A DNA stretch of 64,000 nt from Frankiaceae bacterium. GTDB taxonomy: Bacteria; Actinomycetota; Actinomycetes; BP-191. Position 1 is the stretch's first letter; each line of letters begins with the position of its first letter. Positions 13,456 through 59,176 of this stretch are shown here, one piece after another. The stretch lies in assembly GCA_035940575.1 (NCBI GenBank), contig DASZER010000046.1, positions 3,439 to 67,438 of the forward strand, written 5' to 3'. A program made the translations under genes and the position numbers. A model generated the notes under the pieces. The model made no database searches, was not told where the DNA came from, and saw nothing but the letters and a program-made list of their open reading frames with translations.

Positions 13456-13644
13456 ATGGAGCGCGACCGCTTGATGACCCCCGGCGAGGTCGCGACGCTG
13501 TTCCGCGTCGACCCCAAGACCGTCACCCGCTGGGCCGTCGCGGGCCGCATCGGCAGCGTCCGTACGCCCGGTGGCCACCGCCGCTTCCGCGAGTCCGAGG
13601 TCCGCGCGCTCCTGCGCGGCGAGACCCGCGCCATCGCGGTCTAG
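13456..13644 (+). CDS. bldC: BldC-like small MerR/excisionase-type DNA-binding protein
   Basis: 62 aa MERDRLMTPGEVATLFRVDPKTVTRWAVAGRIGSVRTPGGHRRFRESEVRALL. It closely matches the Streptomyces BldC core (LLTPAEVATMFRVDPKTVTRWAKAGKL..IRTLGGHRRYREAEVRALL, from memory). GAGGAGG lies upstream of the ATG. Confidence 0.85.
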   Translation: MERDRLMTPGEVATLFRVDPKTVTRWAVAGRIGSVRTPGGHRRFRESEVRALLRGETRAIAV

Positions 13645-16578: not shown

Positions 16579-17108
16579 TGCCCCACCCTGCCGTCGATCG
16601 CCTGGCGCAGCAGGTCGGCGTGGCCCATGTGCCGCGCGTACTCCTCGATCATGTGCAGCATCACCCAGCGCAGGGAGACCCGCTTCTCCACGCCGACGAG
16701 GTCGAGGTCGTTGCGCTCGAAGAAGTCCTCGGCGTACGCCACCTCCTCGCGCCACGCGGCCCACGCCTCGTCCACGCCGTCGGCGCTCGCGCGGTCCCAG
16801 GCCGCGTCCACGTCGTCGTCGCGCTTGAACGGGCGCGGCGCGTCCTCGCCCGCGAGGCCGCGGCGGAACCATCCGCACTCCACGTCGGCCATGTGGCGTA
16901 CGAGGCCCAGCAGCGACATCGACGTCATCGGGACGGGGCGCGACGCGAGCTGCTCGGGTGTCAGCCCCTCGCACTTGAGGACGAGCGTCTCGCGCTGCCA
17001 GCGCAGGAAGCCGGCCAGCAGCTCGCGCTCGGTGCCGGCCCTCGGGACGTCCGTACGCGGGTCGTCGCCGGGGTCGACGAAGACGTCAGCGAACGGGGTC
17101 GTGCTCAG
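16575..17108 (-). CDS. DinB/DUF664-family protein, probable non-canonical CTG start
   Basis: Family region ERELLAGFLRWQRETLVLKCEGLTPEQL...SLLGLVRHMADVECGWF...HMIEEYARHMGHADLLRQ. There is no ATG/GTG/TTG between the far-upstream ATG 17378 and the internal MTSMS. CTG at 17108 overlaps the upstream stop as CTGA. Confidence 0.55.
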   Translation of the reverse strand: MSTTPFADVFVDPGDDPRTDVPRAGTERELLAGFLRWQRETLVLKCEGLTPEQLASRPVPMTSMSLLGLVRHMADVECGWFRRGLAGEDAPRPFKRDDDVDAAWDRASADGVDEAWAAWREEVAYAEDFFERNDLDLVGVEKRVSLRWVMLHMIEEYARHMGHADLLRQAIDGRVGQ

Positions 17109-27711: not shown

Positions 27712-28545
27712 GTGCCGAACGTGTACGCCCTCGCCGCCCACCCGCTGGTCCAGCAGGTGGCGCAGGAGGAGGTCAAGACCAAGGGGCCCCGCGCCGTCTT
27801 CGGCGTGATCCTCATGTTCCTCATCCTCTGCGGCGGCGTCTGGATGCTGCTCCAGTCGTCGTTCGGGCCGTGGCAGGCGTACCTGATCTCGAGCGTCGCG
27901 TTCTGGGGCTCGTGGCTGGTGCTGTCCACGATCTGGCTCGTCGGCGTCCCCGGCGTCGGCGGGTGGATCCCGCGCTCGACGCCGCGCTTCAACGGCCCGC
28001 AGGGCGCCGAGGCGTCGTGGGTCGTGGTCAACCCGCACGGCGAGGACGAGAAGCTGAAGAAGGCGTTCGACGAGTTCGCGAACGGCGGCGACGCGGCGTT
28101 CTTCACGGTCGACGAGTCGCTCCAGGACCCGACCACGCAGTCGCAGAAGTCGTCGGCCGAGTCGGCCGCGAACGAGCGCATCTCCGAGGAGTACGCCCGC
28201 GACCTCGGCGTCGGCGCGGCCGACGTGACGTCGCCGAACGTCATCACGGTCACCGAGACGCAGCTCGGCAAGGAGGACGGCAAGTTCAAGTACGCGCGGA
28301 TCACGTTCGGCCCCGCGAAGCCGAACGCCACCGACAACGAGCCGACGAAGGCGCTCATCGCGCGGATCAAGCCGAAGACCATGGAGCTCGCGCTGCACGA
28401 GGGCTCGCTGGCGAGGCCGACGTACGTCGCGATGCCGCTGTTCGGCGTGCTGTTCCTCCTCCACGCGCTGCTGCTGGCCAGGTACGAGACCAAGCACGTG
28501 GACACCCCGCAGGGCGCGCCGGAACGGGTGACCGCGGGCGTCTGA
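27712..28545 (+). CDS. membrane protein of unknown function, last gene of the b6-type operon
   Basis: 277 aa with two N-terminal TMs, an acidic soluble domain of about 150 aa and a C-terminal TM (YVAMPLFGVLFLLHALLLA). 12 nt after the cytochrome c gene. Confidence 0.6.
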   Translation: MPNVYALAAHPLVQQVAQEEVKTKGPRAVFGVILMFLILCGGVWMLLQSSFGPWQAYLISSVAFWGSWLVLSTIWLVGVPGVGGWIPRSTPRFNGPQGAEASWVVVNPHGEDEKLKKAFDEFANGGDAAFFTVDESLQDPTTQSQKSSAESAANERISEEYARDLGVGAADVTSPNVITVTETQLGKEDGKFKYARITFGPAKPNATDNEPTKALIARIKPKTMELALHEGSLARPTYVAMPLFGVLFLLHALLLARYETKHVDTPQGAPERVTAGV

Positions 28546-39870: not shown

Positions 39871-42800
39871 TTACTTGCGCGACGCGTCCCAGTTGGCCGG
39901 GATCGGGTCGAGCGTGCCGACGCCCCAGATGCCGCCCGTGCCCGGGAGGACGATCTTGGAGGCCGAGTCACCCGCGAGGTTGGTGACCTTCACGACGACC
40001 GACGTGATCTTGTAGCGGTCGATCGCCGCACCGGTGGTGAAGCCGGTGGCGGTACGCGGCAGGTAGCTCGGCGAGTACGGCCAGGCGTTCGACGTGTTGA
40101 AGCCCATCGTGTTGAACGTCGTCGGGTTCGCGAAGGTCCGCAGGACCGTCCGCGACACGACGCCGTACGTCGTCGAGTTGACCTTGACCATCACGCCGTC
40201 GCGGTAGCCGCGCATGAACGTCGTGTCGTACGGCACCGCCCGGTCGTAGCTGTTCGCCGAGTAGATCTGCGCACCCGGGACGAGCGTGCGGAGGGCCCAC
40301 GAGGAGGTCACACCGCGGCGCACGACCTGGCCGAGACGGTTCTTGGTGATCTGGTTGACCGAGCCGTCGGGGAAGCGGACCCAGGTGCCGAGCGCGTGCG
40401 CGCCGTAGGCGAAGCCGGCACCCGTGGGGTGGGCGTTCAGCTCGCCGGAGCTCACGTTGTACACCTGGCTCAGCGGCATCTTCCACGCCGCCAGCTGGCC
40501 CGAGCTGATCGGGCGCTTGATGCTGTCGTACACGTAGTAGTAGCCGCTGCCGCTGGTCTTGATGACGGCACCGTCACGGAAGCCGACGCGGGTGAGGCGC
40601 GGGTAGCCGTTCAGGACCGACACCGGGACCGTGATGACCGAGCTGTCCGTGATCTGCCAGCTCCGGCGGGCGTTGACCGACACGAACTGGCGGCGAGCCA
40701 GCGTGCCGTTGGCGCCGTCCACGATCAGCCAGCCCGGGTCGTTGGCGGACTGCTTCAGCACGGTGCCCACCGGGTAGCGGGTCGTGCCGACCACCTTGAC
40801 GAACGGGAACGTCATCGTCCGGCTCTTGCGGAACGTCGTCGTGCTGAGGTCGCAGGAGAACGGAGCGACGGCGCCCAGCGACTTGTTCGCGGTGATGCCG
40901 CGGTAGTCGATGGACATGCGGGCCGAGGAGCAGACGCCGTTCGGCGCCCACTGGTCCGCGTCGTTGCTGTAGCCGACGGCCTTGACGTTGAGGTTGTCGC
41001 CGTCGACGACCGTGTCGGTGCGGCCCCACGTGCCCGTCGCCGGGCGCGTGGTGTTCACGAGGCTGACGGTGCCGATCTCCGGCGCGCGCAGGATCGTGAT
41101 GGTGTCGCTGACGGTCGGCGTGACGCCGGCCGTGCGGCCGTAGTCGTCCTTGCCGGACAGGTACAGCGTGAGCGAGCCCTCGGGCAGCGTGGTGTTGCCC
41201 TGCGGGTACACGGACGGGTAGTCCGCGGTGTACTCGCCCGCCGGCGTGGTCGCCGTCGGCGCGGTCGTGCTCAGGCGCCAGTACCGCACGAGGCCCGTCG
41301 TGGCGACCGCACCCGTGTTGACCTTGGTGGCACCGCAGAACGTCGTGGAGTTGCTGACCGGGCAGCTCAGGTCGAGCTTCACGGTCGGCGCGGCCGGGGC
41401 GAGCACCGACGCCGTCTGCGAGTTGCCGACGTTGCCCGCCGAACGGTCGTCCACGACGTTGGCGGCGGAGAAGCGCACGAGGGCGTCCTTCGTCGCGTCG
41501 ATCGCCTTCTCCGCGAGGGTCAGGTCGGCCGACTTGCCGTCGGTGGCGGTCGTGACCGCGGTGACCGCCTTGTTCGTGCCGGCGGGCTGCTCGACCAGGA
41601 TCTCGCCGACCGCGAGGCCGTCGACGGCCTCGGAGAAGAAGACCTTGATCTTGTCCTCGGCCGTGGTGTCGAGCGGGCAGCTGCCGTTGTTGGCCGCCGT
41701 ACCGGCGCACGCGCCGGTGATGGCCGGGCCGGCGCCGTCGGTCGTCGGCTGCGCCGCCGCGTCGATGCGGACCGCGTTGCGCTGGTCGCTCGCGTCGGTC
41801 AGGCCGACGTTGTCGGTGCCGCCGTGGTACTGCACGGTCGGCGTCGAGTCGGTGTCACCGACCACGCCGGGAGCGATCGGCGCGAGGTTGAGCCGCACGC
41901 CGGTCGAGCCGAGCAGGTCGATGCTCGTGATGGTCCTGTTGCTGACCGTGAACCGCGCGGTCTCCACGGAGAAGCCGTTGAGGGCCTCGCCGTAGACGAT
42001 GTCGATCGCGTCGATGCGGCCGTCGCTGTTCAGGTCCTTGGTGGTGCGGGAGACGACCACCGGCGGGGCCTTGTCGAGCACCCGGTTGAAGACGAACGGC
42101 GTGTCGTTCGCGCCGGTGCCCCAGCCGGTGCCGGAGACGTTCTGCGTCTGCGACAGCGGGTTGGAGCCCACCTTCGGGTCGGCCGGGCGGTAGTCGTTGA
42201 TCGTCGCCGTCGTCGGCGTCGCCGCCGTGTCGGGAACGTCGCCGACGCACAGGCCGATCAGCGTGACGTTCGGCGTGTCGCCCTCGGACGCGGTGTTCTC
42301 CTCGTCCGTCAGGAGGCAGCCGGACGGGTGGTTCTCGTAGCCGTTGACGCGGTACGAGCCGTCGGCCTCGCCGTCGAGCGCGCTGCGGTAGATCGCCTCG
42401 CTGTACTTGGCGACGACCGTGTCGAGCTGGCCGTCGGCGTCGGAGTCCGACGTCGTGACCATCTGCACCGCGGGCGCGGCCTTGTCGGTCGCCGTGACCG
42501 TGAAGTCCGGCACGTCCACGCCGCCGGCCTTGAGGCCACCGGTGGCGGGGCGGGTGTAGACCAGGCGCGGCTGCTCACTGGTGAGCATGACGCCGCCGAA
42601 CGTGAGGGTGAACGTCGTGTTGCTGGTCACCGTCACGGCCGTCGGGGTCTGCACGTCCGAGCCCATGATCTTGAAGTTCGCCAGGTTCTCGGCGACCTTC
42701 GTCTGGTAGTCCTCGATCGCGAACGGGAACGTGACCGTCATCCGGTCCAGGTAGCCGTCGCGGCCCTGGTTGTACAGGTTCCGGCCGGCGACGTCGCCGG

Positions 42801-44697
42801 TCGTGACGGCGCTGCTGGCGGGCTTCGGCGGGATCGCGCCGATGAAGCGGTCGCTGAGCGTCGGGTCCGTCGCGGAGTTGCCGACCGCGTCCTGGACCGC
42901 CGGCTCCATGCGGACCTTGTCGTTGACCTTGGGCAGGCGCTTCGAGCCGCTCGGCGGCGTCGGCTCGGTCGTCGGGCCGAGCTCGATCGTCAGCGAGGTG
43001 AGGTCGGCCGACCACGTGACGGTCGGGTTCGAGCCCCAGCTGATGCCGCCGTCCGGGAACGTCAGGCGCTCGTTGACGCAGGCCGCCGCGAGCGCGCAGG
43101 TGTTGCTGTCGCCGGTCTCGGAGATCGAGTCCTTGTACATCTTCTCGCTGAACGTCACCTGCACGACGTCGCCGGCCGCGCCGACGCCGTCGTTGCCGCC
43201 GTCAGAGAGGAACGACACCGACGCGAGGCGCGGCGGGATCGTGTCCTTGGTGTACGTGCTGGCGGAGTTCCAGGAGTCGGTCGTGTTGCCGAACGGGTCG
43301 AGCAGGCGGCCCTGGATGGTCATCAGGCTGCCGGTCGTGCCCACACCGGTGGTGTCGACGCGGACGACGTCCGGGGACGTGTTGTCGGAGGCGACCGGCG
43401 TCCACGCCGTGGCGTCGCCGGGAGCCGTGGAGAGCGCGCCACCGGCGGTGACGACGAAGCGGGCCTCGGTCGTGCTGACGCTGTTGTGGCCGCCGGCGCT
43501 GGTCGCCTGGCCGGAGAACGCCACGCGGGCGGGCGCCTGGGTGACGTTCGCCGCGTTGATGCCGCGGTGGGCCGCGGAGCCGTCGTGGAGGTCGATCGCG
43601 CCGTTCGTGGTGGTCGGGGCCGTGACGTCGTTGCTGCGGTCGACCTTGTCGCCGCTGCCGTTGCGGTTGTCGAACAGGCGGACGGCGGCGGTGAGGTTGC
43701 CGAGCCGGTCGAATGCGCGGACGAAGACGTCGTCGCTGACCTGGCCGTTGCGGGCGGTCTTCGACGTGGCCGTGATGCCGGTGCCGTCACCGATGAACAG
43801 CTCCTGCGTGGCGCCGGGGAGCGCGGGCAGCGTGAACATCGCGGGCGAGCCGTCTGGACGCTTGAGGAAGTTGGCCTCGGTGACGTTGTTGCCGTCGTTG
43901 AGGAACAGCAGCGTCTTGTCGGGGTCGTTGTGCTCCGAGGCGCCGACGGCGTACGCGTCCTCCTTCGGCGTGCCGGTCTGGCGCTCCATCGGCGGGCGGT
44001 TGATCGGCGCGAAGCTCGTGGACTTCGGGTCGACCGGCGGCTTCGAGTCGATGGTCAGCTTCTGCGTCTCGACGGCGGCCGCGGGGCTGGTCGTGCTGTC
44101 GGAGAAGCGGATGCCGTTGGCCGGGACCGCGAGCTTGAAGTCGCGGTTCTCGATCGTGCCGGCGCTGCTGCCGGGGTGGACCGTGACGAAGTAGCCCGTG
44201 CTGCCGGTCGCGCGCACGCCGTCGACCGCGATGCGGATCGGGATCTGCCCGCCGCTCGGCGAGCCGATGACGTAGCCGGTGCTAACGGGGGTCTGCGTGA
44301 AGTCGATCTCGCCGAACGCGCCGTCGGGGCCGCCGAGCGAGGCGCTCGTGCCGCTGACGTCCTTGTAGACGGCGAAGCCGTCGCCGGGCGCGAAGTCGCG
44401 GTCCGGGACGATCGCGGGACCCGTGGGGTAGCCGCTGAGACGAAGCTCGACGCCGTTGATGGCGGCGTTGGCGGCGGTGTCGACCTTGAAGACCGCCGTG
44501 TTGCCGCGCACACCCTGGGAGGTGTTGCGGAAACCGGCGTTGGGGCCGACGGTGTTGCTCTCGCCGATGTTGTTCGAGTAGACGGCGACGGTCGCGGTCG
44601 CGGCGGACGCCGGAGCCACGAGCGGGCCGGCTGCAGCGATGAGCGGCACGGTCGCCGCCACCACCGCGAAGCGGCTACGTGCACGGGTAGAACGCAT
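39871..44697 (-). CDS. 1608-aa secreted surface (S-layer-like) protein
   Basis: Signal peptide MRSTRARSRFAVVAATVPLIAAAGPLVAPASA. Thr/Ser/Gly/Asp/Asn/Val-rich and poor in Lys/Arg/Glu. GAGGAG lies before the ATG, with a 430-nt upstream spacer and a strong terminator. No catalytic motif recognised. Confidence 0.75.
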   Translation of the reverse strand: MRSTRARSRFAVVAATVPLIAAAGPLVAPASAATATVAVYSNNIGESNTVGPNAGFRNTSQGVRGNTAVFKVDTAANAAINGVELRLSGYPTGPAIVPDRDFAPGDGFAVYKDVSGTSASLGGPDGAFGEIDFTQTPVSTGYVIGSPSGGQIPIRIAVDGVRATGSTGYFVTVHPGSSAGTIENRDFKLAVPANGIRFSDSTTSPAAAVETQKLTIDSKPPVDPKSTSFAPINRPPMERQTGTPKEDAYAVGASEHNDPDKTLLFLNDGNNVTEANFLKRPDGSPAMFTLPALPGATQELFIGDGTGITATSKTARNGQVSDDVFVRAFDRLGNLTAAVRLFDNRNGSGDKVDRSNDVTAPTTTNGAIDLHDGSAAHRGINAANVTQAPARVAFSGQATSAGGHNSVSTTEARFVVTAGGALSTAPGDATAWTPVASDNTSPDVVRVDTTGVGTTGSLMTIQGRLLDPFGNTTDSWNSASTYTKDTIPPRLASVSFLSDGGNDGVGAAGDVVQVTFSEKMYKDSISETGDSNTCALAAACVNERLTFPDGGISWGSNPTVTWSADLTSLTIELGPTTEPTPPSGSKRLPKVNDKVRMEPAVQDAVGNSATDPTLSDRFIGAIPPKPASSAVTTGDVAGRNLYNQGRDGYLDRMTVTFPFAIEDYQTKVAENLANFKIMGSDVQTPTAVTVTSNTTFTLTFGGVMLTSEQPRLVYTRPATGGLKAGGVDVPDFTVTATDKAAPAVQMVTTSDSDADGQLDTVVAKYSEAIYRSALDGEADGSYRVNGYENHPSGCLLTDEENTASEGDTPNVTLIGLCVGDVPDTAATPTTATINDYRPADPKVGSNPLSQTQNVSGTGWGTGANDTPFVFNRVLDKAPPVVVSRTTKDLNSDGRIDAIDIVYGEALNGFSVETARFTVSNRTITSIDLLGSTGVRLNLAPIAPGVVGDTDSTPTVQYHGGTDNVGLTDASDQRNAVRIDAAAQPTTDGAGPAITGACAGTAANNGSCPLDTTAEDKIKVFFSEAVDGLAVGEILVEQPAGTNKAVTAVTTATDGKSADLTLAEKAIDATKDALVRFSAANVVDDRSAGNVGNSQTASVLAPAAPTVKLDLSCPVSNSTTFCGATKVNTGAVATTGLVRYWRLSTTAPTATTPAGEYTADYPSVYPQGNTTLPEGSLTLYLSGKDDYGRTAGVTPTVSDTITILRAPEIGTVSLVNTTRPATGTWGRTDTVVDGDNLNVKAVGYSNDADQWAPNGVCSSARMSIDYRGITANKSLGAVAPFSCDLSTTTFRKSRTMTFPFVKVVGTTRYPVGTVLKQSANDPGWLIVDGANGTLARRQFVSVNARRSWQITDSSVITVPVSVLNGYPRLTRVGFRDGAVIKTSGSGYYYVYDSIKRPISSGQLAAWKMPLSQVYNVSSGELNAHPTGAGFAYGAHALGTWVRFPDGSVNQITKNRLGQVVRRGVTSSWALRTLVPGAQIYSANSYDRAVPYDTTFMRGYRDGVMVKVNSTTYGVVSRTVLRTFANPTTFNTMGFNTSNAWPYSPSYLPRTATGFTTGAAIDRYKITSVVVKVTNLAGDSASKIVLPGTGGIWGVGTLDPIPANWDASRK

Positions 44698-49040: not shown

Positions 49041-49283
49041 TCCCTGCGGGGTGGCAAGAAAGGCTCAAGTTCCTGCCGGACCCGCCGATACATCTGCTGT
49101 CAGCAACCGTTCCGAGACGGCCGCCGACCTCGACAAAGGCACACCGCGCGCGAGCGCGGGCCGCAAAGGCATGGGACTGCCCCGGCAGTCAGCCAGCCCG
49201 CCGAAGGGTCAACGGCCAAGAGCGTTGGACCGCCGACTTCAAGCACGTGGAGACGGCAGCCGCCTCGGGGTTCGCACCCGGAG

Positions 49284-50006
49284 GTGCTGTCCGTGCTTCG
49301 CCGATTCGCCTCGGTCCTCGTGGCCTCGACCATCGCCCTCACCGGGCTGGCCGCCGCCGCGCCCAGCGCGTCCGCCTCGACGCAGGAGTCGCAGTTCGTC
49401 TCGCTGACGAACGGCGCCCGCTCCAACAAGGGCCTCCGCACCTACGGCGTCGCCTCCGACCTCGTCTCCGTCGCCCGCCGCCACGCGCAGCGCATGGCGT
49501 CGCAGAAGTCGCTGTACCACAACCCGAACCTCGGCTCCGAGGTCTCCGGCTGGCAGGCCGTCGGCGAGAACGTCGGCATGGGCGGCTCGGTGTCGTCCAT
49601 CCACAACGCGTTCATGAACAGCACCGCGCACCGCGCGAACATCCTCGACACGGACTTCACGCAGGTCGGCATCGGCGTCGCGTTCGACTCCGACGGCGTC
49701 ATGTACGTCACCGAGGTCTTCCGCAAGCCGAGCGGCTCGACGTCCGTCACCCCGGCCCCGCGGCCCCGCCCGGTCGCCACGGCCCGCCCGCGCACGACGT
49801 ACAAGCCGGCCGTCGCGCCGAAGCCTGTCGCCAAGCCCGTCGCCCGCAAGCCCGTCGCCCGCAAGCCCGTCGTGAAGCGCCCCGACCCCCGCGCGCAGCT
49901 CGCCGCCCGCCTCGCCCACGCCCGCCAGGTCGCGTCCGCCCGTGCCGCGGAGAGCGCCCTCGAGCACGCCGTCGTGTACGTCGACGTGATGGGCTCGCTC
50001 GCGTAG
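49284..50006 (+). CDS. secreted CAP/SCP (PR-1-like, YkwD-type) domain protein, paralogue 1
   Basis: 240 aa with a signal peptide. CAP core is SQFVSLTNGARSNKGLRTY...ARRHAQRMASQKSLYHNPNLGSEVSGW...GENVGMG...HNAFMNSTAHRANIL...FTQVGIG. A Pro/Lys/Ala linker contains a 15-bp tandem repeat (KPVAR). Confidence 0.8.
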   Translation: MLSVLRRFASVLVASTIALTGLAAAAPSASASTQESQFVSLTNGARSNKGLRTYGVASDLVSVARRHAQRMASQKSLYHNPNLGSEVSGWQAVGENVGMGGSVSSIHNAFMNSTAHRANILDTDFTQVGIGVAFDSDGVMYVTEVFRKPSGSTSVTPAPRPRPVATARPRTTYKPAVAPKPVAKPVARKPVARKPVVKRPDPRAQLAARLAHARQVASARAAESALEHAVVYVDVMGSLA

Positions 50007-50264
50007 CACCTCCCCGTCAGGCTCCCGCCCCGGTCCGTTCGTACGGACCGGGGCGGTGTCGTGTACGCCGAACGGAGTAGTGCCAGTCTGCTTACCGGCG
50101 GGTGGTTTTCGGCCCCGGTGCTGGCATTTGGGCTAATCCTCTGGCAGGGTCTTGCCCGCAGGGGTGGGACCGGGCGCGTCGTCTTCCCTGGACGCGGCCG
50201 TCACGTGTACGCCCGCCGGCTTCCGAGCTCGATCGGTCGGCCTGATCCCTCGAGGTACGTCTTC

Positions 50265-50978
50265 TTGCTGCGCCGCGTGCTCGTACTGCTCCTCCTCGTC
50301 CTGCCGCTGTCCGCCGTCTCCGCGACGCCGGCGTACGCGTCGGCGACGGAGTCGGAGTTCGTCTCCCGCACCAACTCCGCACGGACGTCGCGCGACCTGC
50401 GCGCGTACGTCGTGCGCAGCGACCTCGTCTCCGTCGCCCGCCGCCAGGCGGCGCGGATGGCGGCCGCGCGGCGGATCTCCCACAACCCGAACCTCACCTC
50501 CGAGGTCACGAGCTGGCGCAACGTCGGCGAGAACGTCGGCAGCGGCAGCACCGTGTCGCGCATCCACACGGCGTTCATGAACTCGTCGGGCCACCGCGCG
50601 AACATCCTCAGCGCGACGTTCACCGAGGTCGGCATCGGCACCGCGCGCGGCGGGGACGGGCTCATCTACGTCTCCGAGGTGTTCCGCCGCCCGACGTACG
50701 CCACGACGTACGCCCCCGCGCGCAGCACCACGACGACCAGGCGGCGTACGACGACCGCCCCCCGCACCAGGACGACCGTCCGCGCCTCGCGCTCGGCCGC
50801 CCGCCGGCCGCTGCCGCCGGCCCGCCCGGCGACCGTACGTCGCGTGACGGTCCGCGTCGTCGACCGTACGGCGGGGCGCCTGCGCTACGCGTACGGCATC
50901 TACCGCACGCCGCGGCCCGTCGGGTCGCTCGACCGCGCGGTGTCGTACGTGCGCGCGTCGCAGATCCTCGCGGGCTAG
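50265..50978 (+). CDS. secreted CAP/SCP domain protein, paralogue 2
   Basis: The TTG 50265 start is approximate. Signal peptide LLRRVLVLLLLVLPLSAVSATPAYA. Same CAP core (ARRQAARMAAARRISHNPNL...HTAFMNSSGHRANIL). Confidence 0.75.
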   Translation: MLRRVLVLLLLVLPLSAVSATPAYASATESEFVSRTNSARTSRDLRAYVVRSDLVSVARRQAARMAAARRISHNPNLTSEVTSWRNVGENVGSGSTVSRIHTAFMNSSGHRANILSATFTEVGIGTARGGDGLIYVSEVFRRPTYATTYAPARSTTTTRRRTTTAPRTRTTVRASRSAARRPLPPARPATVRRVTVRVVDRTAGRLRYAYGIYRTPRPVGSLDRAVSYVRASQILAG

Positions 50979-51181
50979 AGCCCTCCTACTAGTCCCTTCC
51001 GCTCTCTCCTCCCGGCAGGTGCCGGGCGTTCCGTGACGAAATGTCACGGTCCGCCCCGCCCCCTCGTGGTCGTCCGGCGTCACTTCGTCACTGACGGGGT
51101 AGGCGCGCGTTAGTGCGTTCGGACCAGCACGTCAGGGCCATAGGGCCCGAGGTCCGACGCACTAGCCGAGGGAGGGCCACC

Positions 51182-51874
51182 GTGCTCCGCAAGGTCGCCG
51201 CGCTGCTGCTGGCCCCGCTCGTCGTCGCGGGCGTCGCCTTCTGGGGCAGTGCCGCCTCGGCGGCCGACGCGCACGCGGGCTCGTTCGTCAGCAAGGCGAA
51301 CGCCGAGCGCACCTCGCGCGGGCTGCGCGCCTACACGGTCGCGTCCGACCTCTCCGTCGTCGCCCGCCGCCACGCGGAGCGGATGGCGGCCAAGCACTCG
51401 CTGTACCACAACCCCAACCTCGGCTCCGAGGTCTCCGGCTGGCAGGTCGTCGGCGAGAACGTCGGGATGGGCGGCGACGTCCAGTCGATCCACCAGGCGT
51501 TCATGGACAGCCCGGAGCACCGCGCGAACATCCTCGCCCGCGACTACACCGAGATCGGCGTCGGCACGGTCGTCGACGCCGACGGCGTGCTGTGGGTCAC
51601 CCAGGTCTTCCGGCTCCCGATGAAGGCCGTCGCGCCGGTCCCCGCCAAGCCGCGCGTCGTCGTGGCGTCGCGGTCGCGTACCGCGCCCGTCGTGCACCAC
51701 GCTGCGGTCCGCCCGGTCGCGAAGCCCGCGCCGGCCCGCAAGGTCGTCGCGGCCCCCGCGCCGGTCGCGGTCGACGCGAACGCGCTCGCCGGCGCCCTCG
51801 CCGACGCGACGGCGGTCGACCCGGTCGCGCAGGCGATGGCGTACGCCGACGCCATGGCGGCGATCGGCCGCTGA
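51182..51874 (+). CDS. secreted CAP/SCP domain protein, paralogue 3
   Basis: GTG 51182 is preceded by GAGGGAGGG. Signal peptide VLRKVAALLLAPLVVAGVAFWGSAASAADA. Same CAP core (ARRHAERMAAKHSLYHNPNL...HQAFMDSPEHRANIL). Confidence 0.8.
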   Translation: MLRKVAALLLAPLVVAGVAFWGSAASAADAHAGSFVSKANAERTSRGLRAYTVASDLSVVARRHAERMAAKHSLYHNPNLGSEVSGWQVVGENVGMGGDVQSIHQAFMDSPEHRANILARDYTEIGVGTVVDADGVLWVTQVFRLPMKAVAPVPAKPRVVVASRSRTAPVVHHAAVRPVAKPAPARKVVAAPAPVAVDANALAGALADATAVDPVAQAMAYADAMAAIGR

Positions 51875-51904: not shown

Positions 51905-52114
51905 CTAGCAGGCGGCTCGGTGGAACGTCGGGATGCCCTGGCAGCACTCGGTCGGCGCGACGGCGCTGTACTCGACCATGACGTTGCAGTCGCAGTCGGT
52001 AAGCCCCGTGTAGCACGTGAGGTGCGTGCCCGGGCCGCCCGCGACGGTACGGAGCTCGTCGGGCGTGAGCGCCGCGAGCGTCTCCTTCGCGAGGGTGAGC
52101 CGGCGGGTCAGCAT
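51905..52114 (-). CDS. 69-aa Cys6 peptide with double-glycine-type leader (RiPP/bacteriocin-precursor-like), copy 2
   Basis: MLTRRLTLAKETLAALTPDELRTVAGG|PGTHLTCYTGLTDCDCNVMVEYSAVAPTECCQGIPTFHRAAC. The start overlaps the stop of copy 1 (ATGCTGA). G/C-rich third positions. Confidence 0.7.
   Translation of the reverse strand: MLTRRLTLAKETLAALTPDELRTVAGGPGTHLTCYTGLTDCDCNVMVEYSAVAPTECCQGIPTFHRAAC
51918..51957. repeat. 40-nt exact direct repeat, copy A (3' end of peptide gene 2)
   Basis: cggtggaacgtcgggatgccctggcagcactcggtcggcg is identical to 52127..52166. Confidence 0.9.
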
Positions 52115-52326
52115 GCGGCACCCGCCCGGTGGAACGTCGGGATGCCCTGGCAGCACTCGGTCGGCGAGAACACGCTCGGGTGGAACACCGGCGTGATCGC
52201 GCACTCGACGCACGTGTAGCACGTGCCGACCGACGCGTCGGCACCGGCGCCGACGGCGCCGAGGTCGTCCGACGTGAGCGCGGCGAGGGTCTCCTTGGCG
52301 AGGGTGAGCCGTACGGAACGCTTCAT
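52108..52326 (-). CDS. 72-aa Cys6 peptide with double-glycine-type leader, copy 1
   Basis: AGGAG lies 6 nt before ATG 52326. Product MKRSVRLTLAKETLAALTSDDLGAVGAG|ADASVGTCYTCVECAITPVFHPSVFSPTECCQGIPTFHRAGAAC. Confidence 0.7.
   Translation of the reverse strand: MKRSVRLTLAKETLAALTSDDLGAVGAGADASVGTCYTCVECAITPVFHPSVFSPTECCQGIPTFHRAGAAC
52127..52166. repeat. 40-nt exact direct repeat, copy B (3' end of peptide gene 1)
   Basis: Identical to 51918..51957. Encodes PTECCQGIPTFHR in both genes. Confidence 0.9.
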
Positions 52327-52441
52327 CTGGGCTCCTGGGGAACGAGGGGGACGAGCCGCGCTCTGGGCGCGCGACTCCGCGTCGCCACGTTCCCCGCGGC
52401 GGCTCCCCCACACCCGCGACCTCACCCCCCACGCGCCGACG

Positions 52442-55242: not shown

Positions 55243-55269
55243 CGGAACGTGACAAGTGGCCCCACGATG
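55243..55269 (+). promoter_or_regulatory. candidate ECF-type promoter (CGGAAC-N16-CGATG)
   Basis: An AAC-containing -35 and a CG(A/T)T -10 at ECF-like spacing, about 35 nt upstream of the uORF ATG. A related motif sits at 57637..57664. Confidence 0.35.
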
Positions 55270-55301
55270 GGCTGCTCGCACCCCACCCCCGGAGCCGCCG
55301 C

Positions 55302-55391
55302 ATGCGTACGCAGACCGCCGTCGGCGTGCTGCTGCTGCTGCTCGCCATCGTGGTCTCGGCCGGGGTCACGGTCGCGCAGGTGATGCGGTGA
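55302..55391 (+). CDS. 29-aa hydrophobic upstream ORF coupled to the sigma-factor gene
   Basis: GGAG lies 7 nt before the ATG. Product MRTQTAVGVLLLLLAIVVSAGVTVAQVMR. 27 of 28 codons end in G/C. Its TGA overlaps the sigma GTG (GTGA). Confidence 0.5.
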   Translation: MRTQTAVGVLLLLLAIVVSAGVTVAQVMR

Positions 55392-56170
55392 CGCGTCCCC
55401 ACGGCCGGCTGAGCGGGTTCGACGCGCTGCGCGCCGAGCTCGTCCGCTACCACACCGACCCGCACGCGTTCGGCGACGGGACGCTCGGCGTCCCGCGCGG
55501 CAGCCTGGGCAACGTCATCCCGTTGCGGCCCGAGCTGGCCGGAGCGGTGCCCGCTCCGGCCGACGAGCACGCCGCCGCCGCGGAAGACGCGGCCCCGGAA
55601 GGCGACGAACCGTTCGAGGCGGAGCCGGCCGTCGTCGAGCTGGTCGCGCGGGCGCAGGGCGGCGACGCGGAGGCGTTCGGGCTGCTCTACGACCGCTACC
55701 TCGACCTCGTCTACCGCTACGTGTACTACCGCGTCGGCTCGAAGGCCCTCGCGGAGGACCTCGTCAGCGAGACGTTCCTGCGTGCGCTGCGGCGCATCGG
55801 GTCGTTCGAGTGGCAGGGCCGCGACTTCGCCGCCTGGCTCGTCACGATCGCGCGCAACATCGTCGCGGACCACTACAAGAGCGGCAGGTTCCGCCTCGAG
55901 GTGTCGACCGCGGACATGCTCGACGCCGACCGCGCGACCGACGGGCCCGAGAACGAGGTCCTCGAAGGCATCACGAACGTCACGCTGCTCGAGGCCGTCA
56001 AGCGGCTCAACGGCGAGCAGCAGGAGTGCGTGGTGCTGCGGTTCCTGCAGGGCATGTCGGTGCTCGAGACCGCGCAGGCCATGGGCAAGACCGAGGGCGC
56101 CATCAAGGCGCTGCAGTACCGCGCTGTACGCACCCTCGGCCGGATGCTGCCGAAGGAGCTCGTCCTGTGA
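55388..56170 (+). CDS. ECF sigma factor with N-terminal extension (BldN/SigD-like by sequence and context)
   Basis: Region 2 is AEAFGLLYDRYLDLVYRYVYYRVGSKALAEDLVSETFLRALRRIGSFEWQGRDFAAWLVTIARNIVADHYK. Region 4 is QQECVVLRFLQGMSVLETAQAMGKTEGAIKALQYRAVRTL. About 85 aa precede region 2. The GTG 55388 start is approximate. Confidence 0.8.
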   Translation: MTRPHGRLSGFDALRAELVRYHTDPHAFGDGTLGVPRGSLGNVIPLRPELAGAVPAPADEHAAAAEDAAPEGDEPFEAEPAVVELVARAQGGDAEAFGLLYDRYLDLVYRYVYYRVGSKALAEDLVSETFLRALRRIGSFEWQGRDFAAWLVTIARNIVADHYKSGRFRLEVSTADMLDADRATDGPENEVLEGITNVTLLEAVKRLNGEQQECVVLRFLQGMSVLETAQAMGKTEGAIKALQYRAVRTLGRMLPKELVL

Positions 56171-56258
56171 CGCTCCGTCGATATGCGAAGGATTCGGGCG
56201 GCCGCGCCCGTAACCGTCCGTACCCGGCCTCGTTGGGGAACGGGAAGGAGGCACTCCG

Positions 56259-57509
56259 GTGATGCGCCGTTCGGCAAGGCTCGCTGAGGAGTTCGCCGCC
56301 GCCCTCGAGGGCCGCGGCGTCGCCTCCGCGCGCCGTGACCCGGCTCTCGCCCCCCTCCTGAGCGTGGCGCAGGGCCTGGCTTCGGTCCCCGTCGCCGCCT
56401 CCCCCGACTTCCGCGACGCGCTGCGCCGCCGCCTGCTCGCCGTCGCGACCGTGCCGCCCGTCGCCGTCCCCGCCCCGAGCCCCGTCGAACGGGCCAAGGG
56501 CTGGGTCGAGGGCTGGCGCGTCCAGAAGGCGATGGCCGCCGCGGCCGCGTCCATGGCCGTCGTCGTCGGCGCCTCCGGCGTCAGCGTCGGCGCGAGCCGG
56601 TCCGTGCCCGGCGACGCCCTCTACGGCCTCAAGCGCAGCGCCGAGGGCGTGCAGCTCTCGCTGGCGCGCAACGACGTCAACCGCGGCAAGCGCCACCTCC
56701 AGCACGCCGAGACCCGCCTGCACGAGATCGCGAAGCTCGTCGACACCGACCTCGCCCTCGCGCCCGGCGCACCGGCCGCGCCCGGCCAGATCACGGTCGC
56801 GTTCGGCGGCTCCCGCTCCGAGCGGGTCGGCGAGGCGTTGCGGCTGATGGACGAGGACACCCGCGACGGCACGCGCCTGCTGTTCGAGGCGTACGCCGAG
56901 GAGCACGACGACGACGTGCTGCGCGTCGTACGCCGCTTCACGCAGCGCCAGCGCGACCACCTCGGCCAGGTCCTCGACAAGCTGCCCACCGCCGCGCACG
57001 CCAAGGCCGAGGAGTCCCTCGCGCTCGTCGCGAGCCTCGACCTGCGCGCGACGCAGCTCCTGTCGGTCGGCACGTGCGGCGACGACTGCGCCGCCCCGGT
57101 GCCGACCGCGCCGACGCCCGGCGCGACGCAGGTCCCGACGCCGGCGCCGTCCCCGTCGTACGACTCCCTCGGCCCGCTGCCGTGCACCTGCCCCGAGGAC
57201 CCGAACGCGTCCCCGACGCCGGAGCCCACGCCGACGCCGACGCCGTCCGAGCCGACGCCGTCCCCGACGCCCTCGCCGGAGCCGTCCTCGACGTCGCGCC
57301 CGCCGGTCACGGCCTCGCCGACGCCCGAGCCGACGCAGACGCACTACCCGGTGCCGACGTACGTGCCCGGCCCGGTCGCGACCCCGGTCCAGACCGTGGC
57401 CGACGAGGTCAACGAGGTCCTGCCGACGCCGCTGCCGACGTTGCCGCCGACCCTGCCGGTCCCTGTCGACGCGCCGGTCGTCCCCGGCATCCCCGTCTCC
57501 CGCCCGTAG
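56259..57509 (+). CDS. anti-sigma factor, DUF5667/RsdA-RsbN-like, single TM, Pro/Thr/Ser-rich C-terminus
   Basis: 416 aa with N-terminal sigma-binding-like helix RLAEEFAAALEG and TM AAAAASMAVVVGASGVSVGA. The extracytoplasmic segment PGDALYGLKRSAEGVQLSLARNDVNRGKRHLQHAETRLHEI resembles the Streptomyces RsbN-type domain (from memory). Confidence 0.65.
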   Translation: MMRRSARLAEEFAAALEGRGVASARRDPALAPLLSVAQGLASVPVAASPDFRDALRRRLLAVATVPPVAVPAPSPVERAKGWVEGWRVQKAMAAAAASMAVVVGASGVSVGASRSVPGDALYGLKRSAEGVQLSLARNDVNRGKRHLQHAETRLHEIAKLVDTDLALAPGAPAAPGQITVAFGGSRSERVGEALRLMDEDTRDGTRLLFEAYAEEHDDDVLRVVRRFTQRQRDHLGQVLDKLPTAAHAKAEESLALVASLDLRATQLLSVGTCGDDCAAPVPTAPTPGATQVPTPAPSPSYDSLGPLPCTCPEDPNASPTPEPTPTPTPSEPTPSPTPSPEPSSTSRPPVTASPTPEPTQTHYPVPTYVPGPVATPVQTVADEVNEVLPTPLPTLPPTLPVPVDAPVVPGIPVSRP

Positions 57510-57636
57510 CGCTCAACCGCTGGGCCGAACGTCCGATACAGGACGTAGGTCACCGGCTGCGCTACCGTGCGCCGTCGGCGATGTCCGATTGGTCCGAACT
57601 GACCACTCTTGACCAGGAAAAATCTTCAAGGAAGCC

Positions 57637-57664
57637 CGTAACCCCGTCGATCTACTAGTCGTTG
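57637..57664 (+). promoter_or_regulatory. candidate ECF-type promoter (CGTAAC-N17-CGTTG)
   Basis: About 90 nt upstream of ATG 57752 of the LAXTG surface protein, directly downstream of the sigma/anti-sigma pair. Confidence 0.35.
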
Positions 57665-57751
57665 TGGGCTACGTCGTACACCACCCGTACGAACACACAG
57701 ACAAGCGAAGGGCCGGCCAACGTGGCGGGCCAACACTCGGAGGTCGGGAGC

Positions 57752-59176
57752 ATGACCAAGTACAACAGCCGGGGGGCGCGGCTCACCGCTCTCGCCCTTG
57801 CCACCGGCACGCTCGTCGTCTCGGCGACGGCGCCCGCGGGCGCTGACGCCGTACCGGTGCCGGACATCTTCGGCGGCCGCGCGCAGGGCACCGCGATCCA
57901 CCTGGAGGTCAACCTCCCGGCGCCCGTGAACCTGCCCGGCATCGGCGACATCACGTCGCTCGTGCAGGACATCTCGTTCACCGAGGGCAACACGGCGAAG
58001 GACCTGGTCGCGAAGCCGACCTCCGTCGCCAAGGCCGTCCTCGGCAACGGCAACGTCGTCGTCCTCTCGGACGTCCTCGGCAAGGCCGTCATCTCCAGCC
58101 TGGACGGCAAGTCCTCCGCGAACGACTCGATCCTCGCGCAGGACCTGGGCCTCCTGAAGATCGGCGTCGGCGAGATCACCTCCGCCGTGTCGCCCGACTC
58201 CGCCACCTCGGCGCTCACGAGCACCTCGTCCTCCTCGCTCGCCAGCCTCCGCATCGGCCTCGCCGGCCTGCCGGACCTGCCGCTGAAGACGGACCTGAAC
58301 GCGGTCGTCAACCAGCTCAACGACACGGTCGACGGTGCGCAGAGCACGGTCGGTGCCGCGGTCGAGAACGCCCTCGGTGTCCTCGACGAGGCCACGCAGG
58401 GTGCGGCCGCCCCGGTCGTCGCGCAGGTCGAGGCCGTCAAGGCGCAGCTCACCTCGCTGCTCGACTCGCTCCAGAACACGATCGCCAACCTCTCGGCCGA
58501 CACGGACCTCGTCCGCCTGTCGCTCCTGGAGTCCACGGAGACGATCACCCGCGCGGGTGCCATGGTCACGGCCAAGGCGACCTCGGGCGTCGGTGGCCTC
58601 GACATCCTCGGCGGCCTCGTGCACCTCGACGCCGTCAAGACCGAGTCGTTCTCCTCGGCGAACGGCAGCAAGGGCGCGGCCGCGGCCGACACCCTCACCA
58701 CGATCCTGGGCCTCAAGGTCGCGGACGTCCTCGACCTGAAGCTCACGTCCGAGGGCCTCTCCGGCACCGTTCTGGGCAACGCCCTCCCGGCTGAGGCGCA
58801 GGACGCGATCCAGACCGTGATCTCGCAGGTGAACGGCGTTCTCGCCCTCGCCGGTGTCACGATCGTCAACGGCCAGACCACGAAGGCCGTGGACGCCAAC
58901 GGCAAGTTCGCGAGCAGCTCGTCCGAGGGCGTTGGCATCGTCGTCAACCCGCTCAAGGCCGCCAAGCCGCTCGTGAAGGTCCAGCTGGTCCCGGCCGGCA
59001 CGGCCGTCAACGCGGCGATCGCGCCCCGCGCGGTCACCCCGCCGAAGGTCACCACCCCGGAGACCAAGACCCCGCTGGCCCGCACCGGCGTTGAGCTCCC
59101 GCTCTTCGCGGTCATCGGCACCGGCCTCGTGGGCGTCGCCCTCGTCGCCCGCCGCCGCCGCACCGTCGAGGCGTAA
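57752..59176 (+). CDS. LAXTG-anchored (sortase substrate) Ala/Ser/Thr-rich surface protein
   Basis: 474 aa starting at ATG 57752 (GGAGG 8 nt upstream). Signal peptide MTKYNSRGARLTALALATGTLVVSATAPAGADA. C-terminus is PLARTGVELPLFAVIGTGLVGVALVARRRRTVEA. Confidence 0.8.
   Translation: MTKYNSRGARLTALALATGTLVVSATAPAGADAVPVPDIFGGRAQGTAIHLEVNLPAPVNLPGIGDITSLVQDISFTEGNTAKDLVAKPTSVAKAVLGNGNVVVLSDVLGKAVISSLDGKSSANDSILAQDLGLLKIGVGEITSAVSPDSATSALTSTSSSSLASLRIGLAGLPDLPLKTDLNAVVNQLNDTVDGAQSTVGAAVENALGVLDEATQGAAAPVVAQVEAVKAQLTSLLDSLQNTIANLSADTDLVRLSLLESTETITRAGAMVTAKATSGVGGLDILGGLVHLDAVKTESFSSANGSKGAAAADTLTTILGLKVADVLDLKLTSEGLSGTVLGNALPAEAQDAIQTVISQVNGVLALAGVTIVNGQTTKAVDANGKFASSSSEGVGIVVNPLKAAKPLVKVQLVPAGTAVNAAIAPRAVTPPKVTTPETKTPLARTGVELPLFAVIGTGLVGVALVARRRRTVEA

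What the first reader, a model, noticed from the sequence alone, without database searches (positions are those of the whole stretch)
51905..52326. Two overlapping genes for Cys6 peptides with double-glycine-type leaders, with no maturase, protease or exporter nearby
The two products are 72 and 69 aa. They share a leader, RLTLAKETLAALT(S/P)D(D/E)L..V.G. In copy 2 this reads LTPDELRTVAGG, which fits the classic double-glycine leader consensus LSxxELxxIxGG position by position.

The leaders are not Sec signals, since they lack a hydrophobic core. The predicted cores (42-44 aa) each have six Cys and an identical C-terminal block PTECCQGIPTFHRA..AC, but their middles differ.

Gene 1 has a good SD. 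Gene 2 starts inside the stop of gene 1 (ATGCTGA). This is the architecture of RiPP or class II bacteriocin precursors. However, the neighbours are a class A PBP and CAP-domain proteins. No radical SAM, lanthipeptide synthetase, cyclodehydratase or C39-peptidase ABC transporter lies within at least 10 kb on either side. I do not recognise the core family.
Basis: partly seen in the sequence, partly recalled or inferred. Interest (0 to 1): 0.75.

Follow-up and report, generated by a model that had tools for sequence, protein, structure and literature searches.

The report
Unclustered class I lanthipeptide precursor gene pair
Two small overlapping genes in a Frankiaceae genome encode precursors of class I lanthipeptides (ring-forming modified peptides); they sit among housekeeping genes, so the enzymes that would modify them must be encoded elsewhere, which is uncommon for this class but not a new kind of system.

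Summary
Two minus-strand genes (52326..52108, 72 aa; 52114..51905, 69 aa) overlap by ATGCTGA. Each has a charged leader and a 6-Cys core ending in PTECCQGIPTFHRA..AC.

The leader is a known type, not an unknown one. It matches the class I lanthipeptide leader model NF038153 (25.2 bits, cut-off 22) and carries the published LxLxKx5L...GG motif. NCBI already names gene 2 "class I lanthipeptide".

A profile search found about 80 relatives, all metagenomic and usually in tandem overlapping arrays. At four independent loci, relatives lie beside LanB and LanC. At one of these (L022) a C39-peptidase ABC exporter is also present, which accounts for the double-glycine site.

The window has no LanB, LanC or C39 exporter in its 64 kb or in 9 kb beyond it. 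The same holds at seven other loci. Two of the insertion sites recur: PBP/CAP, and ctaA/tkt.

Best reading: these are LanA precursors matured in trans by a LanBC/C39-exporter cluster elsewhere in the genome. That cluster was not seen for this genome.

It is a new core family within a known kind. Interest is moderate.

The parts
52108..52326 (-). Gene 1 (pep1), 72 aa. It is a LanA-type precursor with a leader of about residues 1-28 (nt 52243-52326) and a core of about 44 aa (nt 52111-52242).
   Evidence: ORF. GC3 is 0.89. NF038153 gives 17 bits, below the cut-off of 22. Family profile E=1.9e-26. The orthologue is L007 8502-8720.
51905..52114 (-). Gene 2 (pep2), 69 aa. It is a LanA-type precursor with a leader of residues 1-27 ending in GG (nt 52034-52114) and a core of 42 aa (nt 51908-52033).
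   Evidence: ORF. GC3 is 0.91. NF038153 gives 25.2 bits against a cut-off of 22. PF28317 is precomputed, and NCBI names it 'class I lanthipeptide'.
52108..52114 (-). ATGCTGA start/stop overlap, implying translational coupling of gene 2 to gene 1.
   Evidence: Read directly from the sequence. The same AC*/MLT junction recurs in arrays in L001 and L007.
52332..52336 (-). Shine-Dalgarno AGGAG, 5 nt upstream of the gene 1 ATG.
   Evidence: Read directly from the sequence.
52244..52311 (-). Leader-coding direct repeat, copy in gene 1. The partner copy is 52035-52102 in gene 2; they are 82% identical.
   Evidence: the repeat finder family D1.
52035..52102 (-). Leader-coding direct repeat, copy in gene 2.
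   Evidence: the repeat finder family D1.
52124..52176 (-). Repeat coding the conserved C-terminal block (PTECCQGIPTFHR), copy in gene 1. It is 91% identical to the gene 2 copy.
   Evidence: the repeat finder family D2. A 29-nt core is identical in four genes of two organisms.
51915..51967 (-). Repeat coding the conserved C-terminal block, copy in gene 2.
   Evidence: the repeat finder family D2.

Best explanation
The two genes encode precursor peptides (LanA) of a class I lanthipeptide family. The family uses the LxLxKx5L...GG type of leader.

Proposed mechanism:
1. The N-terminal 27-28 residues act as a leader that recruits a LanB dehydratase. LanB is glutamyl-tRNA dependent and converts core Ser/Thr to dehydro-residues.
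2. A LanC cyclase adds the six core Cys to these residues, forming thioether rings.
3. A C39-peptidase ABC exporter cuts after the double-glycine-type site (after GG27 in peptide 2; at the aligned AG28 in peptide 1) while exporting the product.

In this genome the precursor pair is not clustered with those enzymes. It sits between a class A PBP gene and CAP-domain genes, so maturation would have to happen in trans from a LanBC/exporter cluster elsewhere. This resembles how scattered prochlorosin precursors are served by one class II enzyme.

Shown: the genes exist, the leader belongs to the curated class I leader family, relatives sit beside LanB/LanC/C39 exporter clusters, and no such enzymes lie within about 52 kb on one side and 21 kb on the other.

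Inferred: that this genome has such a cluster, that these two peptides are its substrates, the cleavage site, and thioether rather than disulfide chemistry.
For: - Leader model: NF038153 (lant_leader_L1a, class I lanthipeptide) hits peptide 2 at 25.2 bits (cut-off 22) and peptide 1 at 17 bits. It hits 63 of 78 family members at E<=0.01. PF28317 Lant_leader_dom is precomputed on peptide 2.
- Motif: both leaders carry L-x-L-x-K-x5-L (RLTLAKETLAAL). Walker et al. 2020 describe this motif for class I LanAs that end in GG and co-occur with a C39 protease (PMC7268733).
- Relatives beside the enzymes, at four independent loci:
  - L016/L018: LanB (Lant_dehydr_N, 1.7e-151) and LanC (6.3e-38) lie divergent from an array of 7 overlapping peptide genes. 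These include P0058, whose core ends CDKIPTHHYRGLAC, and a neighbour ending CPGIPSVHVICH.
  - L022: 2 peptides, LanC, LanB, a 143-aa protein, a C39+ABC exporter, then 3 more peptides.
  - L015: LanC next to 3 peptides.
  - L008: a peptide about 2 kb upstream of LanC/LanB.
- Core composition: 8 and 7 Ser/Thr against 6 Cys, enough for six rings.
- Selection: the C-terminal 17 residues are under purifying selection (dN/dS about 0.3), while the middle of the core and the leader evolve almost neutrally (about 0.6-1.0). The fast-changing middle of the core is typical of RiPP precursors; the fast-changing leader is not (see evidence against).
- Conserved orphan placement: L007 has the same PBP-[peptides]-CAP synteny. 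L005 (same MAG) and L006 both carry peptides between ctaA and tkt.
- Same-sample pairing: L010 (an orphan trio) and L022 (the full cluster) come from the same metagenome, Ga0190268. Their leaders share ...ELxxxxLxxVVG(G/A), with the VVGG ending in one of the three L010 leaders.
Against: - No LanB, LanC or C39 exporter was found for this genome. None is in the 64-kb window or 9.3 kb beyond it.
- None of the 120 best LanB homologues lies on a contig of 107162, 138410 or 262616 bp.
- The Frankiaceae LanBs that were found belong to other assemblies.
- Peptide 1 falls below the NF038153 cut-off. It has AG rather than GG/GA at the aligned cleavage position.
- No member of the exact ...CCQGIPTFHRAAC subfamily was seen directly next to LanBC. 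The nearest clustered relatives (L016) share only a degenerate version of the motif.
- In this comparison the leader evolves about as fast as the variable middle of the core, whereas RiPP leaders are usually the conserved part.
- Six Cys could equally form three disulfides.
- No chemical or expression data exist.
Confidence: 0.7

Rival explanations
1. The peptides are unmodified or only disulfide-bonded. They would be class II-bacteriocin-like or signalling peptides with double-glycine leaders, cut and exported by a C39 ABC transporter, with three disulfides formed outside the cell and no lanthionine chemistry.
For: - The double-glycine register is perfect in peptide 2.
- Each core has an even number of Cys (six).
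- No LanBC lies within reach.
- The family's full cluster contains a C39 exporter that could act on its own.
Against: - The leader matches a lanthipeptide-specific curated model, not a class II bacteriocin model.
- At four loci, relatives lie next to LanB and LanC, not only next to an exporter.
- Many family members have odd Cys counts of 5 or 7, which fits thioethers better than paired disulfides.
- No immunity or accessory gene is adjacent.
Confidence: 0.1
2. The genes are stranded precursors. They would be remnants of a lanthipeptide system in a genome that has lost, or never had, the LanBC cluster. They would be unprocessed and either decaying or put to another use.
For: - No cognate enzymes were detected for this MAG.
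- The leader and the middle of the core have dN/dS close to 1 against the L007 orthologues.
Against: - Both ORFs are intact, with a Shine-Dalgarno site and the coupling overlap preserved.
- The C-terminal block is under purifying selection, with dN/dS about 0.3.
- The pair is kept at the same site in a second organism whose neighbouring genes have diverged to dS 0.3-0.4.
- Arrays are expanded to as many as 9 copies in L001, not decayed.
- Only 1 clearly frameshifted and 1 truncated member were seen among 80 (P0072 and P0065).
Confidence: 0.1
3. The peptides are substrates of a different maturase class. One example would be a radical SAM/SPASM enzyme making Cys-derived thioethers (ranthipeptide or sactipeptide-like), using a GG leader similar to the Bacteroidetes TIGR04149 family.
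For: - Four family members weakly hit TIGR04149 (GG_sam_targ_CFB, rSAM-modified RiPP; best E 5e-4).
- The cores are Cys-rich, six Cys in about 43 residues, which recalls SCIFF.
Against: - The only radical SAM gene in the window (9411-10577) is of the CofH/MqnC type. It sits beside UbiA/UbiD/UbiX-like genes, so it belongs to menaquinone synthesis.
- No rSAM/SPASM gene lies next to any of the 12 related loci examined.
- Neither window peptide hits a SCIFF or ranthipeptide model in NCBIfam, and no such model is among the six families hit by the 78 aligned members.
Confidence: 0.05

Closest known systems
Class I lanthipeptide precursors with LxLxKx5L...Gly-Gly leaders and a cluster-encoded C39 protease (Walker et al. 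2020, PMC7268733). One example is PedA15.2 of Pedobacter lusitanus, cited in PMC12328550.
   Same: - The leader motif LxLxKx5L is the same.
- The leader ends in a GG-type site.
- The cognate machinery seen at related loci is LanB + LanC + a C39-peptidase ABC exporter (L022).
- Clusters carry several precursors.
- The same curated leader model applies (NF038153).
   Different: - Those were described for Bacteroidetes; this one is in Actinobacteria (Frankiaceae).
- The precursors here are not in the cluster. They sit at housekeeping loci.
- The core family (...CCQGIPTFHRAAC, 6 Cys) is not described.
- The core is two-part, with a variable middle and a fixed C-terminal block.
Prochlorosins (ProcA precursors and ProcM; class II lanthipeptides of marine cyanobacteria)
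   Same: - Many precursor genes share one conserved leader and have highly variable cores.
- Many precursors are encoded away from the synthetase and are presumably served in trans.
- The leader ends in GG.
   Different: - Prochlorosins use a LanM enzyme and Nif11-type leaders.
- Here the leader and the associated enzymes are class I (LanB/LanC).
- Trans processing is inferred here, not shown.
Class II (unmodified) bacteriocins with double-glycine leaders
   Same: - The leader register matches: L(-12), E(-8), L(-7), V(-4), G(-2), G(-1).
- A C39 ABC exporter is used in the family's full cluster.
   Different: - The leader HMM is lanthipeptide-specific.
- Relatives co-localise with LanB and LanC.
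- No immunity or accessory genes are adjacent.
SCIFF / ranthipeptides (six Cys in forty-five residues)
   Same: Short peptides with about six Cys in about 45 residues and a Gly-Gly-containing leader.
   Different: - No radical SAM maturase lies nearby at any locus.
- No SCIFF model is hit by either window peptide.
- The taxon and the leader family differ.

Membership tests
Class I lanthipeptide precursor, LxLxKx5L/GG leader type (NF038153 / PF28317) | The leader matches the curated leader HMM above its cut-off. | tested here: met
   Peptide 2 scores 25.2 bits against a cut-off of 22. Of 78 family members, 63 match at E<=0.01. Peptide 1 reaches only 17 bits, below the cut-off, but it is 58% identical to peptide 2 and fits the family profile at E=1.9e-26.
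Class I lanthipeptide precursor, LxLxKx5L/GG leader type (NF038153 / PF28317) | The LxLxKx5L motif is present in the leader. | tested here: met
   Both leaders read R-L-T-L-A-K-E-T-L-A-A-L. The motif is as defined in PMC7268733.
Class I lanthipeptide precursor, LxLxKx5L/GG leader type (NF038153 / PF28317) | A double-glycine-type cleavage site (GG, GA or GS) ends the leader, in register with L-12, E-8, L-7 and V/I-4. | tested here: inconclusive
   Peptide 2 fits fully (L16, E20, L21, V24, G26, G27). Peptide 1 has A27-G28 at the aligned positions; GA would require a shift of one residue. AG and AA variants occur in other members.
Class I lanthipeptide precursor, LxLxKx5L/GG leader type (NF038153 / PF28317) | The core contains both Ser/Thr and Cys, so it can form (methyl)lanthionine. 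| tested here: met
   The cores have 8 and 7 Ser/Thr, and 6 Cys each.
Class I lanthipeptide precursor, LxLxKx5L/GG leader type (NF038153 / PF28317) | LanB and LanC are encoded beside the precursor. | tested here: not met
   There is no LanB or LanC in the window or in 9.3 kb beyond it. The feature is met for homologous peptides at L008, L015, L016/L018 and L022.
Class I lanthipeptide precursor, LxLxKx5L/GG leader type (NF038153 / PF28317) | LanB and LanC are present somewhere in the same genome. | not testable with these tools
   Only about 73 kb of one 107-kb contig and 20 kb of a second contig of the MAG could be read. The Frankiaceae LanBs that were found belong to other assemblies.
Class I lanthipeptide precursor, LxLxKx5L/GG leader type (NF038153 / PF28317) | Dehydrated residues and thioether rings are present in the mature product. 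| not testable with these tools
   This needs mass spectrometry or NMR. Predicted masses are given.
Unmodified class II double-glycine bacteriocin | A dedicated C39 ABC exporter, accessory protein and immunity gene lie next to the structural gene, and the family has no modification enzymes. | tested here: not met
   No exporter lies in the window. Family members lie beside LanB and LanC.
Prochlorosin-like systems with many scattered precursors | Many scattered precursors share a conserved leader and have highly variable cores. | tested here: met
   This MAG has at least 3 precursor genes on two contigs. L001 has 9 in one region. Core diversity is shown.
Prochlorosin-like systems with many scattered precursors | A Nif11/NHLP-type leader and a LanM synthetase. 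| tested here: not met
   Neither window peptide hits a Nif11 or NHLP model, and none is among the six NCBIfam families hit by the 78 aligned members. The associated enzymes are LanB and LanC.
SCIFF / ranthipeptide | A match to the SCIFF precursor model and an adjacent radical SAM/SPASM maturase. | tested here: not met
   Neither window peptide hits such a model in NCBIfam at E<=10. No rSAM/SPASM gene lies at any locus. The window's only rSAM is of the MqnC/CofH type.
Lanthiphage (anti-phage class I lanthipeptide clusters of Actinobacteria, bioRxiv 10.1101/2024.06.26.600839) | LphD/LphE accessory enzymes (extra PF14028, PF01135) and the core motif TxDxCxxxCxxxC. | tested here: not met
   The L022 cluster has LanC, LanB, a 143-aa protein and a C39 exporter only. 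The core motif is absent from both peptides, by inspection.

The most novel reading that the evidence does not exclude
Frankiaceae and related Mycobacteriales may run a class I counterpart of the prochlorosin system. One LanB/LanC/C39-exporter cluster would serve dozens of fast-evolving precursor genes. These genes are spread as tandem, translationally coupled arrays at recurrent sites among housekeeping genes (PBP/CAP, ctaA/tkt).

The arrays would diversify by duplication and by recombination between DNA blocks that stay nearly identical: the leader, and the 29-nt stretch coding CCQGIPTFHR. The result would be a combinatorial library built on a fixed C-terminal module.
Probability: 0.35. Interest if true: 0.55.

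Novelty: new member of a known kind. Interest (0 to 1): 0.35.

Why it matters
If the reading is right, the pair adds an uncharacterised 6-Cys core scaffold (...PTxCCQGIPTFHRAAC) to the class I lanthipeptides.

It would also show that LxLxKx5L/GG-leader class I systems, described mainly from Bacteroidetes, occur in uncultured Frankiaceae. There the precursors are scattered far from the enzymes.

This has a practical consequence. Genome-mining tools that look only in the neighbourhood of LanB and LanC would miss these precursors. The family could offer a naturally permissive LanBC pair for peptide engineering.

It does not overturn any concept. The leader family is curated, and NCBI already labels one of the two genes.

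Tried and rejected
- Pfam (the copy held here) gave no hit for either peptide even at E<=10. The hit to PF28317 is known only from precomputed annotation.
- A scan of GTDB species genomes with the leader pattern confirmed only one locus, the Holophaga L008.
- The JGI metagenome scan confirmed only 7 loci, mostly contigs of about 1 kb.
- The look-up for the window protein 9411-10568 found nothing on record, probably because the gene caller chose a different start. The look-up for 27712-28545 returned only a 2.5-kb Logan contig.
- I tried to find the MAG's own LanB through the last homology search. Frankiaceae LanBs exist (P0233, P0242), but their accessions show they come from other assemblies.
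- Tetranucleotide correlation could not decide whether L010 (orphan peptides) and L022 (full cluster) come from one organism. All the actinobacterial loci compared correlate at about 0.98-0.99.
- Consensus scans found no sigma-70 promoter or intrinsic terminator. These scans are not informative for high-GC actinobacteria.
- I rejected the window's flavoprotein (13641-14279) as a LanD-type decarboxylase that might act on the C-terminal Cys. It sits with UbiA and UbiD, which marks it as UbiX-like.
- I rejected any functional tie to the PBP and CAP genes. The only support is synteny with one closely related organism, while other arrays sit beside unrelated genes.
- Bothwell et al. 2021 (PMC9845027) is not held, so it could not be read.

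Full report
**1. Observation**

The window is 72.8% GC. On the minus strand, gene 1 runs 52326..52108 (72 aa) and gene 2 runs 52114..51905 (69 aa). They overlap by ATGCTGA, so the last codons of gene 1 (GCA TGC TGA) contain the start of gene 2 (ATG CTG ACC). AGGAG lies 5 nt upstream of the gene 1 ATG.

Each predicted core has six Cys. The 14-residue block PTECCQGIPTFHRA is identical in both.

ORFs of this size are common by chance in such GC-rich DNA. These two are nonetheless real genes. Their GC3 is 0.89-0.91, like the neighbouring genes. They have many homologues. They are kept at the same chromosomal site in a second organism.

The window is the reverse complement of JGI contig Ga0334906_000067 (107,162 bp) of a Frankiaceae MAG. 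NCBI names gene 2 'class I lanthipeptide' and gene 1 'hypothetical protein VGX28_11175'.

**2. The leader is a known type**

NCBIfam NF038153 (lant_leader_L1a, 'class I lanthipeptide') matches peptide 2 at 25.2 bits (cut-off 22) and peptide 1 at 17 bits. It matches 63 of 78 aligned family members. Precomputed Pfam annotation gives PF28317 Lant_leader_dom. My Pfam copy returned nothing.

Both leaders read RLTLAKETLAAL, which is L-x-L-x-K-x5-L. Walker et al. 2020 report exactly this motif for class I LanAs. They note that many such leaders end in Gly-Gly and that a C39 protease is often in the cluster (PMC7268733). That paper describes the motif for Bacteroidetes.

**3. The family**

A single-sequence search found only 5 proteins among 5.8 billion. 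A profile built from 13 paralogues found 80. All but one (a 35-aa fragment) are 54-74 aa, and none comes from a cultured isolate: all are from metagenome assemblies or MAGs.

An exhaustive HMMER search with a 78-sequence profile found 2314 cluster representatives at E<=1e-3 but only 21 at E<=1e-10. The leader superfamily is therefore large, while the close family is small.

The cores fall into sub-families:
- the target type, ending ...CCQGIPTFHRAAC;
- a 7-Cys type, TCYTCTCRSCLECL...PEITFRTICR;
- several others.

No hit suggests that these peptides are fragments of larger proteins.

**4. Context elsewhere links the family to LanB, LanC and a C39 exporter**

- L016/L018: LanB (Lant_dehydr_N, 1.7e-151) and LanC (6.3e-38) lie divergent from seven overlapping peptide genes. 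Several of those cores resemble the window peptides (GTHLTCY..., GPTCYTC......CDKIPTHHYRGLAC...CPGIPSVHVICH).
- L022: this is a Frankiaceae-type cluster. Its LanB is in the same 90% cluster as NCBI HWL35039. The gene order is two peptides, LanC, LanB, a 143-aa protein with no Pfam match, an exporter, then three more peptides. The exporter has Peptidase_C39 (1.4e-27), ABC_membrane and ABC_tran domains.
- L015: a LanC next to three peptides.
- L008 (Holophaga MAG): a related peptide about 2 kb upstream of LanC/LanB.

It explains the double-glycine site.

**5. Orphan placement is real and recurrent**

In the window and 9.3 kb beyond its right end there is no LanB, LanC, LanM, rSAM/SPASM, YcaO or C39 exporter. 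This rests on precomputed Pfam, my Pfam scans of most predicted genes (those of at least ~100 aa) from 1675 to 59176, and tblastn with LanB, LanC and exporter sequences from three loci at E<=1e-2.

The window's genes are housekeeping:
- heme synthesis, cytochrome bc1, oxidase and cytochrome c biogenesis;
- menaquinone genes, including an MqnC/CofH-type radical SAM and a UbiX-like flavoprotein;
- an ECF sigma and anti-sigma pair;
- a class A PBP;
- three CAP-domain paralogues.

Seven other loci also lack maturases within the DNA available:
- L007 has the same HAD/474-aa/DUF5667/ECF-sigma/response-regulator/PBP/[4 peptides]/CAP synteny as the window.
- L005 (same MAG, one peptide) and L006 (four peptides) both sit between ctaA and tkt.
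- L001 has nine peptides among the DUF2277 and OsmC genes.
- L010, L019 and L021 sit beside other unrelated genes.

No neighbour recurs across these sites, so there is no hidden dedicated maturase beside the peptides. L010 (orphan trio) and L022 (full cluster) come from the same metagenome, and their leaders share sample-specific features such as ...EL...VVGG. Composition cannot prove they are one organism.

**6. Evolution**

I compared the window with L007.

| Gene | Amino-acid identity | dN/dS |
|---|---|---|
| PBP | 85% | about 0.34 |
| CAP | 79% | about 0.35 |
| Response regulator | 94% | about 0.10 |
| Peptide 1 | 63% | 0.64 |
| Peptide 2 | 54% | 0.90 |

Within the peptides, the C-terminal 17 codons give dN/dS of about 0.3. 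The middle of the core gives about 0.65-1.0, and the leader about 0.6-1.0. The numbers of sites are small.

A 29-nt stretch coding CCQGIPTFHR is identical in four genes of the two organisms. The IPTFH codons are identical in nine genes of three organisms. The core of window peptide 1 is closest to the core of the third L007 peptide, although its leader and position match the second one. This points to recombination among tandem copies.

**7. Mechanism and its limits**

The best-supported reading is that these are LanA precursors. LanB would dehydrate them, LanC would cyclise them, and a C39 ABC exporter would cleave and export them, all encoded elsewhere in the genome.

The steps from 'this genome has the cluster' onward are inferred. 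No LanB of this MAG was found. None of the 120 best LanB homologues lies on a contig with the length of the window's contig, of L005's or of L001's.

The rivals are:
- peptides that are only disulfide-bonded and exported;
- stranded, unprocessed precursors;
- substrates of another maturase class. Four members weakly hit the rSAM-linked TIGR04149 leader model.

These rivals remain possible but are less well supported.

**8. Comparison and novelty**

In mechanism and leader, the closest known systems are the class I lanthipeptides with LxLxKx5L/GG leaders and C39 proteases (PMC7268733; PedA15.2 as cited in PMC12328550). In genome organisation, the closest are the prochlorosins.

The pair is not a lanthiphage-type cluster. 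It lacks LphD/E, and its core motif differs.

This is a new core family in a new taxon, with an uncommon unclustered layout, inside a known kind. One of the two genes is already labelled correctly in GenBank. Interest is moderate.

Noticed in passing
window 51925-51953 and 52134-52162; L007 8672-8700 and 8884-8912; L001 (five genes): The 29-nt block TGCTGCCAGGGCATCCCGACGTTCCACCG, coding CCQGIPTFHR, is 100% identical in four genes of two organisms whose flanking genes have dS 0.3-0.4. The codons ATC CCG ACG TTC CAC are identical in nine genes of three organisms. This could reflect gene conversion, a recombination anchor, or a constraint at the nucleotide level.
   Followed up: partly
window 52111-52242 compared with L007 8714-8926: The peptides look mosaic. 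The core of window peptide 1 (CAITPVFHPSVFSPTECC) is closest to the core of the third L007 peptide (CAITPAIHPSVFSPTNCC). Its leader (MKRS...) and its position match the second L007 peptide. This suggests cores are shuffled between tandem copies.
   Followed up: partly
L008 4408-8223 (+): In the Holophaga MAG, a LanC-like domain (aa 39-416) and LanB domains (Lant_dehydr_N from aa 411, matching model positions 145-646, plus Lant_dehydr_C) lie in one uninterrupted 1271-aa ORF. This looks like a LanC-LanB fusion that lacks the first ~145 positions of the LanB N-terminal model.
   Followed up: no
window 49041-51874 (+): Three tandem CAP-domain (PF00188) paralogues lie directly beside the peptide pair. 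One CAP gene is also next to the peptide array in L007.
   Followed up: partly
window 39871-44697 (-): A 1608-aa protein that appears to carry a signal peptide, rich in Thr, Ala and Gly, has no Pfam match at all.
   Followed up: no
L022 1314-7264 (-): An 1805-aa RHS-repeat protein with a C-terminal Ribonuclease domain, followed by a Barstar-like immunity gene, lies about 1 kb from the lanthipeptide cluster. This is a polymorphic toxin module next to a RiPP cluster.
   Followed up: no
window 9411-10577 and 13641-16596 (-): A radical SAM gene of the CofH/MqnC type lies near a UbiX-like flavoprotein, UbiA and UbiD. This is a quinone (menaquinone) biosynthesis set. It could be mistaken for a RiPP maturase plus a LanD decarboxylase.
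   Followed up: yes
window 55253-59176 (+); L007 1534-5274: A conserved block of ECF sigma, a DUF5667 protein and a ~474-aa protein with no significant Pfam match (the JGI gene call; my own scan translated 501 codons of this frame) lies on the far side of the PBP and response-regulator genes from the peptide site in both organisms. A 29-aa ORF is called next to the sigma gene. I did not examine whether this sigma factor controls the peptide genes.
   Followed up: no
L001 7410-10383: Nine family peptides of at least three core types lie within 3 kb, interrupted by the DUF2277 and OsmC genes. One copy is on the opposite strand. Within the tandem runs, each gene after the first starts MLTRRL inside the previous gene's ...AC/GC stop (ATGCTGA).
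   Followed up: partly
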